From the NCBI GenBank assembly GCA_023953615.1, contig JAMLJH010000002.1, positions 1,318,375-1,382,374 of the forward strand: DNA of 64,000 nucleotides, in the 5' to 3' direction. Every line of letters begins with the position of its first letter. Within the stretch, counting starts at the first letter, position 1. A program made the translations under genes and the position numbers. Of this stretch, positions 57,154 to 60,197 are shown one piece after another. This stretch comes from Verrucomicrobiia bacterium. Lineage in GTDB: Bacteria; Verrucomicrobiota; Verrucomicrobiia; Limisphaerales; JADLHS01. The notes under the pieces are model-generated. The model was not told the origin of the DNA. It worked only from the letters and a program-made list of their open reading frames with translations, and ran no database searches.

Positions 57154-57549
57154 TCACAAAGAATCAACAGACACCGTTCGTAGGATGGCAGCAACGGATT
57201 CTCCGTTGGTGGAAACTTGAATGACCACCAACCCGATGTTCTGCGCCGTTCCAAACCCAAACCAAGAGTATTGCTTTCCTTTTGAGAATTTCATCACCCG
57301 CTGATCAGGATTAAGCTCTTTTCCCGCTATAGCGCTGAAATAAACAGGGTCACACCAAATTAAGCTCCTGTTTTCGGCATGTAATTTTTCCTCCAATTTA
57401 TCAAGCGTCATTCCCTTAAAGTCATCTTCTTCCCAGTGCCCAAAATTAGCGGAACACACGCCAGTTATCGTCTTAAACGAAAATGCTACTAGTATTATGA
57501 TAAGAATCAGCGCCACTAGACCAACTTGGTATCTTGTTACTAATTTCAT
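57154..57549 (-). CDS. Putative immunity protein (N-terminally membrane-anchored, 131 aa)
   Basis: MKLVTRYQVGLVALILIIILVAF is a TM anchor. The ATG at 57549-57547 shares one base with the toxin stop (TAATG). Low GC. Confidence 0.5.
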   Translation of the reverse strand: MKLVTRYQVGLVALILIIILVAFSFKTITGVCSANFGHWEEDDFKGMTLDKLEEKLHAENRSLIWCDPVYFSAIAGKELNPDQRVMKFSKGKQYSWFGFGTAQNIGLVVIQVSTNGESVAAILRTVSVDSL

Positions 57550-58376
57550 TAAAATCCCGAGAAATGTCTTCGCCATTCGACTTTAAGTGCATCTGTACTT
57601 GGAAATGCTTGTGTGAAAACAAATGAGGGTAACGGCTTACTGAAACCAGGCACTGGATTAGTTGGCCTCGGAAAGGTTATCGGGTGAGTGGGGAAGAAAG
57701 AAAGCATCAAGCCAGACACGTAGCTATTCGAGTTGAACTGATCCCAACCAATGCCTGTGTATGTTTGATTAGGAAACAGCTCATATTCGAGGGTGGTATT
57801 TAGAAAATTACCGTTCATTGTACTATTTCGGACTGAAACCATGTCCAAAAAAACCAACGCTTGGGCTGCCGAGGAAAATGTCATGACCAAGGATGGATCA
57901 CCAAGTGGCAATAGCACATCTCTTATACGATTGAACCCAGCTACCATTTCGTCCTTATCAAACGGATAATCAGGACCAGCTCCGATGGCTATTCCATACA
58001 TTTGGCATGGACCAATAAAACTATCTGGAGCCAAAGAAGTTTTGCTAAATGCACGCTTAAATTCATACTTCCTTGTTTTCACCAAGTCGACATCGTCGGC
58101 CAGCAACCAAAGCTTGGAGTGGTATGCGTGGATGCCCCAGTCGTCCATCACCATATGATTTCCATACCAGAGCTCTATAAAAAGGCCTAAATAGTCAAAT
58201 TCCCCAATACTCCGGTTCCACGAAAACTGATAAAGATTGCCTCCTCCATGTTCCTGAATCGGATCCCTACTTAACCATCTGCCCGTGCTGGGATTGTAAA
58301 AGGCTTCGGCAGAATGTGTGGCGAATAAAAAAAGCCCTGCTGACAATGCCGTTATCAAAGTCCGTTTGCTTTTCAT
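57549..58376 (-). CDS. Signal peptide + Rhs-core tail + unassigned toxin domain (shell-less Rhs-tail toxin)
   Basis: MKSKRTLITALSAGLFLFATHSAEA | FYNPSTGRWLSRDPIQEHGGGNLYQFSWNRSIGEFDYLGL | about 210 aa of unrecognised sequence. There are no YD repeats. GAGGTG lies 5 nt upstream of the ATG. Confidence 0.7.
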   Translation of the reverse strand: MKSKRTLITALSAGLFLFATHSAEAFYNPSTGRWLSRDPIQEHGGGNLYQFSWNRSIGEFDYLGLFIELWYGNHMVMDDWGIHAYHSKLWLLADDVDLVKTRKYEFKRAFSKTSLAPDSFIGPCQMYGIAIGAGPDYPFDKDEMVAGFNRIRDVLLPLGDPSLVMTFSSAAQALVFLDMVSVRNSTMNGNFLNTTLEYELFPNQTYTGIGWDQFNSNSYVSGLMLSFFPTHPITFPRPTNPVPGFSKPLPSFVFTQAFPSTDALKVEWRRHFSGF

Positions 58377-58395
58377 ATTTCACCTCGTGTAATTA
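58273..58395 (-). repeat. Conserved 5' handle, copy A (RBS + signal peptide + start of Rhs tail)
   Basis: 123 bp with only 4 mismatches (counted by eye) against 60075..60197. Flanking sequence diverges on both sides. Confidence 0.9.
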
Positions 58396-58451
58396 ACTGA
58401 CGTAACGCAGTTTGGCGTCACTGCGCATGTCCAAGTCAAGATTTGTAGATT

Positions 58452-58670
58452 TCAAAAACATACTTGGAAGGATACAAGTTTGTGTCGTATGGACTTGGGA
58501 GGAGGACCGTAGAGCCGGAATGTTCCTCTAGTTTGAAGATCTGATGGCAGGACAGATGTGCCAAATTTTGTGCCGTCGATTCTAGCCCACCATCGAAGTT
58601 TTTGAAGTCGAACCAAGGACTCCTCATTAACGTCCAGCAGTGCTTTGACTTCGATTAAATCCATGCCCAT
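58452..58670 (-). CDS. Possible small ORF (72 aa) between toxin modules
   Basis: MGMDLIEVKALLDVNEESLVRLQKLRWWARIDG... . No recognisable family or RBS. It may be an orphan immunity remnant or non-coding. Confidence 0.2.
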   Translation of the reverse strand: MGMDLIEVKALLDVNEESLVRLQKLRWWARIDGTKFGTSVLPSDLQTRGTFRLYGPPPKSIRHKLVSFQVCF

Positions 58671-58850
58671 CGGCCCAGTTTCGCCGAAAAAAAGAGCGTG
58701 CTTCCGGCCACTGGTCGCCCCTGCTCTGCATCGGTCAACTTTACAACACGCTCCACTTTTGAAGATTGGCATCCAGTTACGATAAGCAAAACCAGCATCA
58801 AGGATTTCTCAGCCCAAAACATCGTATCGTAATCATAAGCATAAATCTTC

Positions 58851-59309
58851 TCAAGACTTCAACAGTTTGATTCGCCATTTGTCGTTTCCCAAGTAGGTAA
58901 ACCGAATTTTTCCGCGAGTCATTCGCGATGGAATGCCTAAGTCGTCTCGTTTCAATTCGACGCTGTGCATAATTCCCTGCTTTGGAGCAATTTCCCCCGG
59001 ATTGAATGTGAACGGCTCTTTCAGTTTTTCTTTCCATATAATTGTCAGTTGGTTCTTAATGCGGACAGCATCTAAAAAAGTAGATGTCGCACGCTTTAGA
59101 GAGTCCTCAGATTGGGTCGGTACTAATCGTCCACAGGATGCTTCTTCGGGAAGGCCAACAACTTGAACAACCCAAATCTCATTTGTGCTTAGGTTAAACC
59201 ACTCAAAGCTGACCTCGCTTGGGAATACACCTGACCTCGTCACGCAACCTACGCCTGAAACAGCCAGAGCCAGAATAAGGATTAGATTCTTCACAAGATT
59301 TTTCCTCAA
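58851..59309 (-). CDS. Putative immunity protein (exported/lipoprotein-like, ~152 aa)
   Basis: The TTG at 59309-59307 overlaps the toxin stop (TTGA); an alternative GTG lies a few codons downstream. LRKNLVKNLILILALAVSGVGC is a signal peptide ending in Cys. Confidence 0.5.
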   Translation of the reverse strand: MRKNLVKNLILILALAVSGVGCVTRSGVFPSEVSFEWFNLSTNEIWVVQVVGLPEEASCGRLVPTQSEDSLKRATSTFLDAVRIKNQLTIIWKEKLKEPFTFNPGEIAPKQGIMHSVELKRDDLGIPSRMTRGKIRFTYLGNDKWRIKLLKS

Positions 59310-60178
59310 AAGCCAACGCCTGCGGCAACAGCTCGCTCCACAATCCACTCGTATGCCTTGCTTGTTTGAAGCGTCCACGACATGCCGATGTCTGAATGGC
59401 TGGTTGGCGATCCTTCATACAACCAATCGGTGCGATAGAATTCCCGGGCGTTCTCACCGGTAAAGTGCCACGTCGGGGATACAATCGGTTGGTCATGCCA
59501 TGTCTTTACCGCGTGGTCGAGGTGCGCAACATTCGCAGGCTTGGATGTTCCCCACCACCGGTCAAACGGCATCTTTGCGACTGCATCAAAAATCCCCACC
59601 CAGTTCACGGGAACTGGCTTGTCTCTCGTTCCGCAACAGTCACAACCCAAATCGTTGAGCATCTTGGCGACACCAGCCGCAATGATTGCGCCTCTGCTCC
59701 AGCCCGTAAGATTGATTTTGAAGTCGTCTCCATTTTCCTTCGCCTGACAGTAATCTTTACAAATTCGTTTATGCACCGTCAGAGCGATAGAATAGGAATC
59801 CAAACCGGTCGCGCCAAAGCGCGGCCCTCGCCAGTACTCACGAGGCCATTCCGATGTCCTCAAATACAATATCCACGGATTTGCTCCGCGTCGTGGCGTT
59901 GACCATGTCCCGTCAATCGCATAAAAGGCAAGGCCCAGATCATCCACGTGGCTGAGAGGATTGTTTCCGGCAAACTCATAGATGTTCGGCCCGCCCAGTA
60001 GTTCCGATATGCCGCCCCCTTCTTCATCGGTCATCGGATCGCGACCGCAAACATCCCCGATGGGATCACGGCTCAACCATCTGCCCGTGCTGGGATTGTA
60101 AAAGGCTTCGGTGGAATGTGTGGCGAATAAAAGAAGCCCTGCTGACAATGTCGTTATCAAAGTCCGTTTGCTTTTCAT
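59306..60178 (-). CDS. Signal peptide + Rhs-core tail + DUF2235 / Tle1-like alpha/beta-hydrolase (phospholipase) toxin
   Basis: MKSKRTLITTLSAGLLLFATHSTEA | FYNPSTGRWLSRDPI...NIYEFAGNNPLSHVDDLGL | AFYAIDGTW..., INLTGWSRGAIIAAG (GxSxG) and WVGIFDAVAKM. These three motifs match the DGT(W/G)N, GFSRGA and FDTV motifs of DUF2235/Tle1 lipases. Confidence 0.75.
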   Translation of the reverse strand: MKSKRTLITTLSAGLLLFATHSTEAFYNPSTGRWLSRDPIGDVCGRDPMTDEEGGGISELLGGPNIYEFAGNNPLSHVDDLGLAFYAIDGTWSTPRRGANPWILYLRTSEWPREYWRGPRFGATGLDSYSIALTVHKRICKDYCQAKENGDDFKINLTGWSRGAIIAAGVAKMLNDLGCDCCGTRDKPVPVNWVGIFDAVAKMPFDRWWGTSKPANVAHLDHAVKTWHDQPIVSPTWHFTGENAREFYRTDWLYEGSPTSHSDIGMSWTLQTSKAYEWIVERAVAAGVGF

Positions 60179-60197
60179 ATTTCACCTCGTGTAATTA
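60075..60197 (-). repeat. Conserved 5' handle, copy B
   Basis: See copy A (58273..58395). Confidence 0.9.

What the first reader, a model, noticed from the sequence alone, without database searches (positions are those of the whole stretch)
57154..60197. Shell-less Rhs-tail toxins: Sec signal peptide fused directly to the last part of an Rhs core, then a swappable toxin
Two minus-strand genes (57549..58376 and 59306..60178) begin with a near-identical Sec-type signal peptide, MKSKRTLIT(A/T)LSAGL(F/L)LFATHS(A/T)EA.

Right after the predicted cleavage site they continue with FYNPSTGRWLSRDPI ... N(L/I)Y(Q/E)F ... D(Y/D)LGL. That is only the terminal ~40-60 residues of an RHS repeat-associated core. 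No YD-repeat shell, PAAR, VgrG, LXG, TPS or other trafficking domain is present.

Downstream of the DxLGL junction the two proteins are unrelated. One is a DUF2235/Tle1-like lipase and the other is unassignable.

Each is followed by a small exported or membrane-anchored protein whose start overlaps the toxin stop (TAATG; TTGA). This is the classic toxin-immunity layout.

The retained tail contains both Asp-bearing motifs (RDP... and ...DxLGL). From memory, these correspond to the region that performs C-terminal aspartyl autoproteolysis in TcC/Rhs proteins.

Hypothesis: these are Sec-exported, self-processing minimal Rhs-tail effectors that work without the encapsulating shell. I am not aware of this delivery logic having been characterised.
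Basis: partly seen in the sequence, partly recalled or inferred. Interest (0 to 1): 0.85.

Follow-up and report, generated by a model that had tools for sequence, protein, structure and literature searches.

The report
Shell-less secreted Rhs-tail toxin family
Two small genes in this Verrucomicrobia genome belong to a large, apparently undescribed family of exported bacterial toxins that keep only the last ~40 residues of an Rhs toxin container behind a signal peptide, always near a conserved helper lipoprotein.

Summary
Genes 57549..58376(-) and 59306..60178(-) each start with a Shine-Dalgarno site, ATG and a classical Sec signal peptide. The predicted A-x-A cleavage site abuts FYNPSTGRWLSRDPI...DxLGL. 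This matches only positions 37-76 of TIGR03696, just above its cut-off.

It is not a fortuitous ATG. 203 of 229 retrieved homologues have the same layout, and 149 C-terminal domains fall into 95 unrelated families. The carriers are almost all Verrucomicrobiota or other PVC genomes.

The tail is under protein-level selection. Both Asp motifs are kept at least as strictly as in shell-bearing Rhs proteins.

- The genes occupy the "orphan cassette" position downstream of Sec-dependent Rhs genes.
- The same toxin domains also occur behind full shells.
- The cassettes are linked (Fisher p=1.6e-8; reverse test 4/4) to a lipoprotein with a transglutaminase-like Cys/His core plus TPR repeats (window 56062..56991(-)).

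Self-cleavage is untested. AlphaFold2 gives the tail no fold of its own.

Verdict: a real, new variant of Sec-dependent polymorphic toxins, similar in logic to MafB. How the tail is processed and how the toxin crosses the outer membrane are unknown.

The parts
59306..60178 (-). Signal peptide + Rhs tail + Tle1-like lipase toxin, 290 aa. Signal peptide aa 1-25 (60104..60178). Tail aa 26-83 (59930..60103), carrying an 18-residue insertion between the two Asp motifs. Toxin domain aa 84-290, with GWSRG.
   Evidence: Homologous signal-peptide-tail lipases in L001 (P0071), L016 and P0045; the same toxin domain follows shell sequence in L062.
58851..59309 (-). Candidate immunity lipoprotein for the lipase. 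Its TTG start overlaps the toxin's TGA stop. N-terminus RKNLVKNLILILALAVSGVGC.
   Evidence: 47-51% identical homologues lie directly after the homologous lipase genes in L001 and L016.
57549..58376 (-). Signal peptide + Rhs tail + toxin of unknown fold, 275 aa. Signal peptide aa 1-25 (58302..58376). Tail aa 26-65 (58182..58301). Toxin domain aa 66-275, with conserved HSK, GAGP, NR..D, NSNSY.SG and PG..P.P.
   Evidence: AF2 pLDDT is 80-97 for aa 66-275 and 31-47 for the tail. No PDB fold match.
57154..57549 (-). Candidate immunity protein, 131 aa, with an N-terminal membrane anchor. Its ATG overlaps the toxin's TAA stop (TAATG).
58235..58395 (-). Leader repeat, copy 1: 19 nt upstream sequence with the Shine-Dalgarno site, the signal peptide and the first part of the tail.
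   Evidence: 161 nt, 88% identical to copy 2. All differences within the GRWLSRDPI codons are synonymous.
60037..60197 (-). Leader repeat, copy 2.
56062..56991 (-). Linked accessory gene: 309-aa lipoprotein (signal LVLILGC) with a transglutaminase-like core (invariant GTC...K.H plus an acidic residue) and C-terminal TPR repeats.
   Evidence: Pfam hits Transglut_core2 and TPR_2, both below their cut-offs. Conserved residues. Genetic linkage. AF2 pLDDT 91; best PDB matches are menin, and they are weak.
60889..61566 (-). Third toxin cassette, lacking the signal peptide and the first half of the tail. It begins ..GGYLFAGNNLVECFDYLGMW. Probably the original C-terminus of the truncated Rhs gene at 53270.
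   Evidence: Homologous toxin domains in L064 and L040 follow directly on, and in the case checked (L064) in frame with, the shell match of long Rhs genes.
60319..60885 (-). Candidate immunity lipoprotein for the third toxin (VKILSLVAAAIILTCC).
   Evidence: A weak homologue follows the homologous toxin in L064.
60195..60362 (-). Rhs shell fragment (..NRLAGSTRAVSGSNVAVFNYA..) directly upstream of the 290-aa gene's leader.
   Evidence: It resembles residues ~47-68 of the 53270 gene. Similar fragments abut signal-peptide leaders in L016, L017 and P0051.
53270..54600 (+). C-terminal shell part of a Sec-dependent Rhs gene. Upstream pieces are 47771..49762 and 49743..52328. It is cut at ...TGTWLNRDP, inside the tail, by an IS21 remnant.
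   Evidence: (TIGR03696 positions 1-50 only; IstB)

Best explanation
These are functional, separately translated toxin-immunity modules of a Sec-dependent polymorphic toxin family in Verrucomicrobiota.

Proposed course of events:
1. The Sec pathway exports each toxin, and signal peptidase I cleaves after A-x-A.
2. The mature protein then starts with the last ~40 residues of an Rhs core, which carries the two DP-type aspartyl motifs. A hypervariable, cysteine-rich toxin domain follows and acts on the cell envelope. The window's examples are a Tle1-like lipase and a domain of unknown fold.
3. A membrane-anchored or lipoprotein immunity gene protects the producer's own periplasm.

The tail is the family's constant region. 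At the DNA level it is the crossover point through which toxin domains move between these cassettes and shell-bearing Rhs genes in the same locus. At the protein level it is a processing or recognition handle. It either cleaves itself at DxLG|x, or it is bound and cleaved by the co-encoded periplasmic transglutaminase-like/TPR lipoprotein.

Shown: the architecture, its recurrence, selection on the signal peptide and tail, toxin-domain exchange, the envelope-type partner genes, and the linkage to the lipoprotein.

Inferred: export, toxicity, immunity, the processing step, and any route across the outer membrane.
For: - Architecture and HMM match.
- Recurrence: 285 homologues. In the exhaustive search, nearly all of the best 150 hits are 66-385 aa proteins matched at residues ~1-65. 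203 of 229 retrieved proteins have signal peptide plus tail, and -3..-1 is AQA, ASA, ALA and similar in about 160.
- Protein-level selection: the invariant FYNPSTGRWLSRDPI is encoded by many synonymous codons, with mean nucleotide identity 0.82.
- Asp motifs: the RDP Asp is kept in 100% and the second DxxG in 47/47 signal-peptide proteins, against 95% and 42/47 in shell-bearing ones. The Asp-Asp spacing has a median of 23 in all classes. This matches the two DPLGL-type motifs 17 residues apart in Rhs1 (PMC8636562).
- Polymorphism: 149 C-terminal domains fall into 95 families. Cysteine content is 3.5%, with a median of 6 per domain.
- Domain types: the few Pfam hits are a lipase, a cell-wall hydrolase, metallopeptidases and AMOP. 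There are no nucleases.
- Toxin exchange: the toxin-1 family occurs both behind signal-peptide tails and behind shell sequence. Toxin 3 and the lipase do too.
- Partner genes: 26 of 35 family genes are followed by an ORF with a hydrophobic N-terminus.
- Locus layout: main Rhs, then cassettes, then the lipoprotein gene, in L001, L002, L083 and L086 (in L085 the lipoprotein gene lies between the main Rhs and the cassette).
- Linkage: co-occurrence counts of 14/6/3/56, p=1.6e-8. All 4 lipoprotein-anchored contigs carry signal-peptide-tail genes. In L085 the toxin's ATG overlaps the lipoprotein gene's stop.
Against: - There are no experimental data of any kind, and every carrier is a metagenome-assembled genome.
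- No dedicated signal-peptide predictor could be run.
- AF2 predicts no autonomous fold for the tail.
- The retained piece is under half of the ~95-residue plug that forms the protease in solved Rhs proteins. Self-cleavage may therefore fail without a shell.
- Tail conservation could partly reflect cassettes shuttling in and out of shell-bearing genes, where selection would act.
- The residue after DxxG is Leu in only about two thirds of the proteins.
- No route across the outer membrane is evident.
- The lipoprotein's role rests on linkage and on a weak fold match to menin (E about 0.02).
- 137 of 150 toxin domains have no known family, so "envelope-acting" is extrapolated.
Confidence: 0.65

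Rival explanations
1. Autonomous self-cleavage. After export, the ~40-residue tail folds on its own, or against the toxin, and uses its two Asp residues to cut at DxLGL. This releases the toxin without any shell or helper.
For: Both Asp motifs and their spacing are kept as strictly as in shell-bearing Rhs proteins. The tail is under protein-level selection. In Rhs1 the catalytic Asp lies in the second motif, which is retained here.
Against: The tail has pLDDT 31-47 and makes no contacts with the toxin domain in the AF2 model. The known protease is a ~95-residue plug embedded in the barrel. The position after DxxG is R, K, Q or E in about a quarter of the proteins. A Cys/His enzyme is specifically linked to the shell-less cassettes, which would be unnecessary if cleavage were autonomous.
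Confidence: 0.25
2. Loading in trans. The exported tail-toxin docks in the periplasm into the YD shell of the neighbouring Sec-dependent Rhs protein, with the tail acting as the plug. The toxin is then delivered inside that container.
For: The cassettes always lie in Rhs loci. The tail is the piece that plugs the barrel in solved structures. In the window, the main Rhs gene lacks its own tail.
Against: In L001, L002, L083, L085 and L086 the main Rhs gene carries its own complete tail and toxin, so no empty shell is encoded. The window's truncation is caused by an IS21 remnant and a rearrangement, not by design. Post-folding insertion of a toxin into a closed barrel has no precedent that I know of.
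Confidence: 0.07
3. Silent orphan cassettes. The genes are only a recombination reservoir for the main Rhs gene, and the signal peptide and ATG are incidental.
For: They occupy the classical orphan position and share the tail with the main gene. Orphan Rhs modules are a known phenomenon (PMC3967940, PMC3150448; titles and abstracts seen).
Against: More than 200 proteins keep an intact Met, a charged n-region, a hydrophobic core and A-x-A directly before the tail, while the signal-peptide sequence itself drifts. The leaders carry a Shine-Dalgarno site. Classical orphans without a signal peptide coexist as a separate class in related genomes.
Confidence: 0.03
4. Not toxins. They are secreted hydrolases for nutrient acquisition or cell-wall remodelling, and the small downstream proteins are anchors or chaperones.
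For: The identifiable domains are a lipase, peptidases and a cell-wall hydrolase.
Against: The genes sit in Rhs loci. 95 unrelated C-terminal families lie behind one constant region. The same domains occur as C-termini of Rhs shells. Each toxin family has its own specific downstream partner; for example the lipase and its lipoprotein are conserved as a pair in L001 and L016.
Confidence: 0.05

Closest known systems
Rhs / YD-repeat polymorphic toxins (T6SS Rhs, TcB-TcC, WapA)
   Same: The tail is homologous to the end of the Rhs-associated core (TIGR03696 positions 37-76). It has both DP-type Asp motifs at the canonical spacing. A hypervariable toxin starts right after DxLGL, and an immunity gene follows. 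The genes lie in Rhs loci and share toxin domains with shell-bearing Rhs proteins.
   Different: There is no YD shell, so no encapsulation, and no PAAR, VgrG or other N-terminal delivery domain. A Sec signal peptide is fused directly to the tail. Only about 40 of the ~95 residues of the protease plug remain.
Orphan Rhs-CT / immunity cassettes downstream of rhs genes (Poole 2011, PMC3150448; Koskiniemi 2014, PMC3967940)
   Same: They occupy the same position downstream of a main rhs gene, in tandem with immunity genes. They share only the 3' end of the core with the main gene, which permits toxin swapping by recombination.
   Different: Classical orphans lack their own export signal and are deployed after recombination with the main gene (my knowledge of these papers; only their titles and abstracts were seen here). 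These cassettes carry a conserved Shine-Dalgarno site, an ATG and a signal peptide. They look like stand-alone exported proteins.
MafB toxins of Neisseria (PMC4287609)
   Same: The layout is a signal peptide, a short conserved N-terminal region, a polymorphic C-terminal toxin and an immunity gene, with extra cassettes downstream. A lipoprotein gene (mafA) is often adjacent. Secretion depends on the signal peptide, and the step across the outer membrane is unknown.
   Different: There is no sequence relationship: DUF1020 versus an Rhs tail, and MafA versus a transglutaminase-like/TPR protein. MafB is restricted to Neisseria. MafA was shown not to be needed for MafB secretion.
Sec-dependent ('T2SS') class of polymorphic toxins, including signal peptide + inactive transglutaminase + RHS-repeat toxins (Zhang et al. 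2012, PMC3482391)
   Same: A signal peptide is the only export signal. A transglutaminase-fold module is associated with Rhs-type toxins. Lineage-specific constant N-terminal regions carry variable toxins (MicroscillaN, APD1/2).
   Different: In the 2012 cases the transglutaminase domain is fused in cis, has lost its catalytic residues, and is followed by a full RHS array. Here it is a separate lipoprotein with an invariant Cys and His, and the toxins have no repeats. I found no mention of the tail-only architecture in that paper.

Membership tests
Rhs / YD-repeat toxin | YD-repeat beta-shell (PF05593 RHS_repeat / TEN_YD-shell) | tested here: not met
   Neither ORF gives an RHS_repeat hit, even at E<=1. 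Only 25 residues, the signal peptide, precede the tail.
Rhs / YD-repeat toxin | Rhs-associated core domain (TIGR03696) ending in DPxGL | tested here: inconclusive
   The scores of 33.0 and 33.4 bits exceed the 32.5 cut-off, but only model positions 37-76 of 76 are present.
Rhs / YD-repeat toxin | Two DP-type aspartyl motifs about 17 residues apart, before the cleavage site | tested here: met
   The 275-aa protein has D38 (RDPIQE) and D61 (DYLGL). Across the family the Asp-Asp spacing has a median of 23. Compare PMC8636562.
Rhs / YD-repeat toxin | Autoproteolytic release of the C-terminal toxin | not testable with these tools
   This needs protein biochemistry. AF2 gives the tail low confidence.
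Rhs / YD-repeat toxin | Polymorphic C-terminal toxin followed by a cognate immunity gene | tested here: met
   95 C-terminal families among 149 proteins. 26 of 35 downstream ORFs have a hydrophobic N-terminus. The lipase and its lipoprotein are conserved as a pair. Immunity function is inferred.
Classical orphan Rhs-CT cassette | Located downstream of a main rhs gene and sharing its 3' core sequence | tested here: met
   L001, L002, L083, L085 and L086. The window has the same gene order, but inverted.
Classical orphan Rhs-CT cassette | No translation start or export signal of its own | tested here: not met
   A Shine-Dalgarno site, an ATG and a signal peptide are conserved in 203 of 229 homologues.
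MafB-type toxin | DUF1020 (PF06255) N-terminal domain | tested here: not met
   The Pfam scan found no such hit. The resemblance is in logic only.
Tle1 / DUF2235 phospholipase (toxin domain of the 290-aa protein) | PF09994 match and a GxSxG nucleophile motif | tested here: inconclusive
   26.4 bits against a cut-off of 27, covering only 40 of 287 profile positions. GWSRG is present. There is no PDB sequence hit.
Transglutaminase-like cysteine peptidase fold (accessory gene 56062..56991) | Cys-His-acid triad in a Transglut_core-type fold | tested here: inconclusive
   PF13369 scores 22.6 bits against a cut-off of 23.5. Cys is invariant and His invariant or nearly so across 12-49 homologues, with a mostly conserved acidic residue. 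The AF2 model has pLDDT 91, but the best PDB matches (menin, TglA, PNGase) have E>=0.015.

The most novel reading that the evidence does not exclude
The ~40-residue Rhs tail has been turned into a portable periplasmic address tag. A dedicated lipoprotein, built like menin from a transglutaminase-like core plus TPR repeats but with an intact Cys/His pair, binds this tag. It then either cuts the toxin free or passes it on to the cell surface. Together these would form a previously unknown two-step toxin export and activation pathway in PVC bacteria, one that bypasses both the Rhs shell and the known contact-dependent machines.
Probability: 0.25. Interest if true: 0.8.

Novelty: new variant of a known kind. 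Interest (0 to 1): 0.65.

Why it matters
Rhs toxins are understood as cargo sealed inside a YD-repeat container and fired by a dedicated machine. Here a large family, with hundreds of sequence clusters and about 95 toxin families in a sample of 149, has discarded the container. It keeps the exact residues of the container's self-cleaving plug under strong selection.

This makes one long-assumed point directly testable: whether the Rhs aspartyl autoprotease needs the shell. It also puts forward a candidate helper enzyme that nobody has studied.

The family is a catalogue of mostly unknown, cysteine-rich, envelope-directed toxin domains, each paired with an immunity gene. The carriers are Verrucomicrobiota, a phylum that is abundant in soil, water and gut and whose means of bacterial competition are essentially uncharted.

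Tried and rejected
- The genome scan with the window's own 66-aa leader found nothing, because the patterns were too specific. It was repeated with an alignment.
- The promoter and terminator scan of 55800-63000 gave no more sites than shuffled sequence and was uninformative.
- PDB sequence searches with the lipoprotein and with the 290-aa toxin found nothing useful.
- I considered that the signal peptide is a chance ORF extension. This is rejected by family-wide conservation.
- I considered that tail conservation is DNA-level homogenisation. This is rejected by synonymous codon diversity.
- I considered that the window's truncated Rhs gene is a designed \"empty shell\" for the cassettes. 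This is rejected because an IS21 remnant causes the break, and related loci have complete main genes.
- Seven full-text literature searches plus targeted reading found no description of the tail-only architecture. The library lacks most subscription journals, so absence is not proof.

Full report
WHAT IS IN THE WINDOW

The window comes from a Verrucomicrobiae metagenome-assembled genome. NCBI labels the two genes as hypothetical proteins M9920_16085 and M9920_16095, on a 1.68-Mb contig.

On the minus strand, 57549..58376 encodes 275 aa and 59306..60178 encodes 290 aa. Both are preceded by ...ACACGAGGTGAAAT-ATG. Both begin MKSKRTLIT(A/T)LSAGL(F/L)LFATHS(A/T)EA and continue FYNPSTGRWLSRDPI. The shared leader is a 161-nt direct repeat, 58235-58395 and 60037-60197, 88% identical.

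NCBIfam TIGR03696 (Rhs_assc_core) matches residues 26-65 and 26-83. The scores are 33.0 and 33.4 bits against a cut-off of 32.5, and only model positions 37-76 of 76 are covered. Neither ORF matches any YD-repeat, PAAR, VgrG, LXG or TPS model.

After DYLGL or DDLGL the two proteins are unrelated:
- The 290-aa protein has a sub-threshold Tle1/DUF2235 match (26.4 bits against 27) and a GWSRG motif.
- The 275-aa protein matches nothing.

Each gene is followed by an overlapping small ORF. TAATG opens a membrane-anchored 131-aa protein. TTGA opens a 152-aa lipoprotein-like protein.

IS IT A REAL FAMILY OR A CHANCE ATG?

A word-indexed search with the 275-aa protein returned 285 homologues. Beyond ten full-length relatives, the listed hits are almost all 150-330 aa proteins that match only the first ~65 residues. 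Their N-termini read M-K-x-K/R, then a hydrophobic stretch, then A-Q-A | FYNPSTGRWLSRDPI.E.GG.NLY.F..N.....D.LGL, followed by unrelated sequence.

An exhaustive phmmer search used the 66-aa leader against 1.84 billion cluster representatives. It gave 12,770 hits at E<=1e-3, which are Rhs tails of all kinds. Nearly all of the best 150 were short proteins matched at their extreme N-terminus.

Of 229 proteins retrieved, 203 have the signal-peptide-plus-tail layout. Positions -3 to -1 before the F or Y are AQA (88), ASA (19), ALA (16) and other A-x-A variants.

Variant junctions also exist: AHA|MRWYSPNTGRW, ASA|YYCPSTGRW, and one protein that retains one more hairpin. The signal peptide therefore drifts in sequence while keeping signal-peptide properties, and it always ends at the same structural boundary.

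That criterion is not met.

SELECTION ON THE TAIL

Within the window, the two leader copies differ at six or more nucleotides in the codons for GRWLSRDPI, and every difference is synonymous.

Across 15 non-redundant family genes, the invariant 15-residue motif is encoded with both serine codon families, five arginine codons and four leucine codons. Mean nucleotide identity is 0.82. Conservation is therefore at the protein level.

A further test used an anchor that does not force the Asp residues:

| Class | RDP Asp kept | Second N..DxxG motif present |
|---|---|---|
| Signal-peptide class (47 proteins) | 100% | 47/47 |
| Shell-bearing class (47 proteins) | 95% | 42/47 |

The Asp-to-Asp spacing has a median of 23 residues in every class. 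This corresponds to the two DPLGL-type motifs separated by 17 residues in Photorhabdus Rhs1. There the second Asp is catalytic, and the protease is a ~95-residue plug buried in the barrel (PMC8636562).

The family therefore keeps the catalytic signature but less than half of the plug.

THE TOXIN DOMAINS

149 C-terminal domains fall into 95 unrelated families. They contain 3.5% cysteine, with a median of 6 Cys per ~172-residue domain.

Only 13 of 150 proteins hit any Pfam family: Tle1-like lipase, AMOP, DUF3238, DUF6973, DUF922, a cell-wall hydrolase and two metallopeptidases. None is a nuclease, deaminase or ADP-ribosyltransferase.

26 of 35 family genes in the fetched loci are followed by an ORF with a strongly hydrophobic N-terminus. 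The lipase and its lipoprotein recur as a pair in L001 and L016.

I infer toxins that fold and act outside the cytoplasm, with immunity proteins facing the periplasm.

In other genomes the cassettes form same-strand arrays of 1-6 toxin and small-protein pairs. These arrays lie downstream of an Rhs gene that has its own complete tail and toxin (L001, L002, L083, L085, L086). The one complete main gene examined (L085, 2070 aa) starts with a signal peptide.

The same toxin domains occur in both contexts:
- The toxin-1 family follows signal-peptide tails in P0001-7, P0026 and P0077, and follows shell sequence in P0008, P0009 and P0115.
- Toxin 3 of the window is matched in L064 and L040 directly after, and in L064 in frame with, the shell match of long Rhs genes.
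- The lipase follows shell sequence in L062.
- The toxin of the L001 main gene recurs behind a signal-peptide tail in L011.

The cassettes therefore sit where classical orphan Rhs modules sit, and they exchange cargo with shell-bearing genes through the shared tail. Unlike orphans, they carry their own export signal. Classical orphans without a signal peptide coexist as a distinct class in related genomes.

A LINKED ACCESSORY GENE

Window 56062..56991(-) encodes a 309-aa lipoprotein with a transglutaminase-like core and TPR repeats. Its Pfam hits are Transglut_core2 at 22.6 bits (cut-off 23.5) and TPR_2 at 22.4 bits (cut-off 27), both sub-threshold.

Homologues close or interrupt the arrays in L001, L002 and many other loci. 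Among 79 non-redundant loci found through the tail motif, a strict count gives the following:

| Signal-peptide-tail gene | Lipoprotein gene | Loci |
|---|---|---|
| present | present | 14 |
| present | absent | 6 |
| absent | present | 3 |
| absent | absent | 56 |

Fisher's exact test gives p=1.6e-8. Three of the six "signal-peptide-tail only" loci are short contigs. Two of the three "lipoprotein only" loci actually carry the variant MRWY leader.

In the reverse test, all four contigs fetched through the lipoprotein, and for which DNA was available, carry signal-peptide-tail genes within 8 kb. In L085 the toxin's ATG overlaps the lipoprotein gene's stop codon.

The family is large, with 2188 homologues at E<=1e-5. 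Cys in GTC is invariant and His in K.H invariant or nearly so, and an acidic residue is mostly conserved.

The AF2 model is confident, with pLDDT 91. Its best PDB matches are menin, a peptide-binding scaffold built from a transglutaminase-like domain and TPR repeats. The statistics are weak: E about 0.02 and TM-score 0.36-0.46.

Loci that have Rhs genes but no signal-peptide cassettes almost never have this gene. I therefore regard it as a specific partner of the shell-less toxins. Its role could be protease, tag receptor or something else, and this is inference only.

HOW IT MOST LIKELY WORKS

Shown:
- a conserved and selected signal peptide
- a conserved and selected tail carrying both Asp motifs
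- hypervariable cysteine-rich toxin domains
- envelope-type partner genes
- cargo exchange with shell-bearing Rhs genes
- linkage to the lipoprotein

Inferred:
- Sec export and cleavage after A-x-A
- action on the cell envelope
- immunity provided by the downstream gene
- removal of the tail, either by itself or by the lipoprotein

For self-cleavage: the catalytic signature is retained. Against it: AF2 gives the tail pLDDT 31-47 and no packing against the well-predicted toxin domain. The plug is incomplete. The residue after DxxG is not Leu in about a third of members. A Cys/His enzyme is specifically co-inherited.

I put autonomous self-cleavage at about 0.25, helper-dependent processing or recognition at about 0.25, and leave the rest undecided.

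Loading in trans into a neighbouring shell is unlikely, because main genes in related loci are complete.

No route across the outer membrane can be named. The same gap exists for MafB (PMC4287609).

THE WINDOW'S OWN REARRANGEMENT

The Rhs gene on the plus strand (pieces at 47771.., 49743.. and 53270..) stops at ...TGTWLNRDP, where an internal IS21 remnant begins.

Then follow, all on the minus strand: the lipoprotein gene, cassette 1, cassette 2, and a third toxin. The third toxin's tail starts a few codons after the RDP position.

This is the L002-type order with the segment from mid-tail to the lipoprotein gene inverted. The NamZ flank is shared with L002.

The segment 56-62 kb has 47-48% GC against about 58% elsewhere.

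The two intact cassettes kept their leaders and partner genes despite the loss of the main gene's C-terminus.

COMPARISON AND NOVELTY

By homology the tail is Rhs. By architecture the proteins fail the defining Rhs feature, the shell. They also fail the defining orphan feature, the lack of an own start and export signal.

By logic they resemble MafB and the lineage-specific Sec-dependent toxins of Zhang et al. 2012 (PMC3482391). That paper also noted inactive transglutaminase domains fused after the signal peptide of some RHS-repeat toxins.

I found no description of the tail-only architecture or of its lipoprotein partner, within the limits of an open-access library.

I rate it a new variant of a known kind. 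It is of solid interest to specialists because it separates the Rhs plug motifs from the shell in nature, and because it reveals a large, unexplored toxin repertoire in Verrucomicrobiota.

Noticed in passing
window 54600-55700: An internal IS21 remnant directly abuts the Rhs gene, which is cut at ...WLNRDP. The remnant comprises the istA 3' end at 54618-54848, istB residues 1-106 at about 54890-55290, and an istB C-terminal piece at 55345-55500.
   Followed up: partly
window 53270-62744 compared with L002, L001 and L083: The gene order (lipoprotein, cassette 1, cassette 2, toxin 3, all on the minus strand) is the inverse of the layout in related genomes, where the order is main Rhs, then cassettes, then lipoprotein. 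Toxin 3 begins inside the tail, close to where the plus-strand Rhs gene ends. This suggests an inversion with one breakpoint in the tail. MAG misassembly cannot be excluded.
   Followed up: partly
window 61530-62744 (-): A 404-aa exported beta-helix / Ig-domain protein loses its last Ig domain exactly at the junction with the truncated third toxin cassette. This is the other breakpoint of the putative rearrangement.
   Followed up: no
window 58436-58822 (-): Overlapping small ORFs lie between cassette 2 and cassette 1. One of them starts with a lipoprotein-like signal (MLVLLIVTGCQSS...). This is probably a frameshifted orphan immunity gene.
   Followed up: no
window 60195-60362 (-); L016 9518-9739 and 6536-6748; L017 7696-7932; protein P0051: Fragments of the Rhs shell (around ...GGSNVAVFNY...) lie immediately upstream of signal-peptide leaders in at least four genomes. 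The recurrent junction between shell remnant and leader is unexplained.
   Followed up: partly
L032 and L034 (six copies); L031, L049, L066, P0111; L045: There are other conserved leader types without a signal peptide directly before the tail. Examples are ...KPLYPGFCGVVSGHRYYNPSTGRW and ...SGVRYYGFRYYNPSTGRW, in short upstream ORFs rich in Arg and Pro. None of these loci has the lipoprotein gene. They may be further cassette classes or conserved non-coding recombination sites.
   Followed up: no
window 39256-47641 (+): A separate, complete 1751-aa Rhs protein is followed by an ankyrin + DUF4253 protein (44540..46057), which is probably a cytoplasmic immunity protein. A shell-only Rhs orphan starts at 46064 and degenerates after about 270 residues.
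   Followed up: partly
window 56000-62000: GC content drops to 0.47-0.48 from about 0.58 in the rest of the window. The drop covers the lipoprotein gene and all three cassettes.
   Followed up: no
L001/L005/L006/L009 (CAYSDO), L002/L004/L012 (CAYWMD), L016 (CAYVGC), L073 (CAZLOH), L017 (labelled Binatia): Several MAGs carrying these Verrucomicrobia-type loci are labelled Bifidobacterium, Bifidobacteriaceae or Binatia in their records. These are probably taxonomic mislabels or binning errors.
   Followed up: no
window 57552-58181 (-), toxin domain of the 275-aa protein: This is a confidently modelled domain (pLDDT 80-97) with no PDB fold match. It has invariant HS, GAG, R..D, NSN.Y..G and PG motifs across 13 homologues (the Lys of HSK and Pro of GAGP are nearly invariant). 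It may be a new toxin fold.
   Followed up: partly
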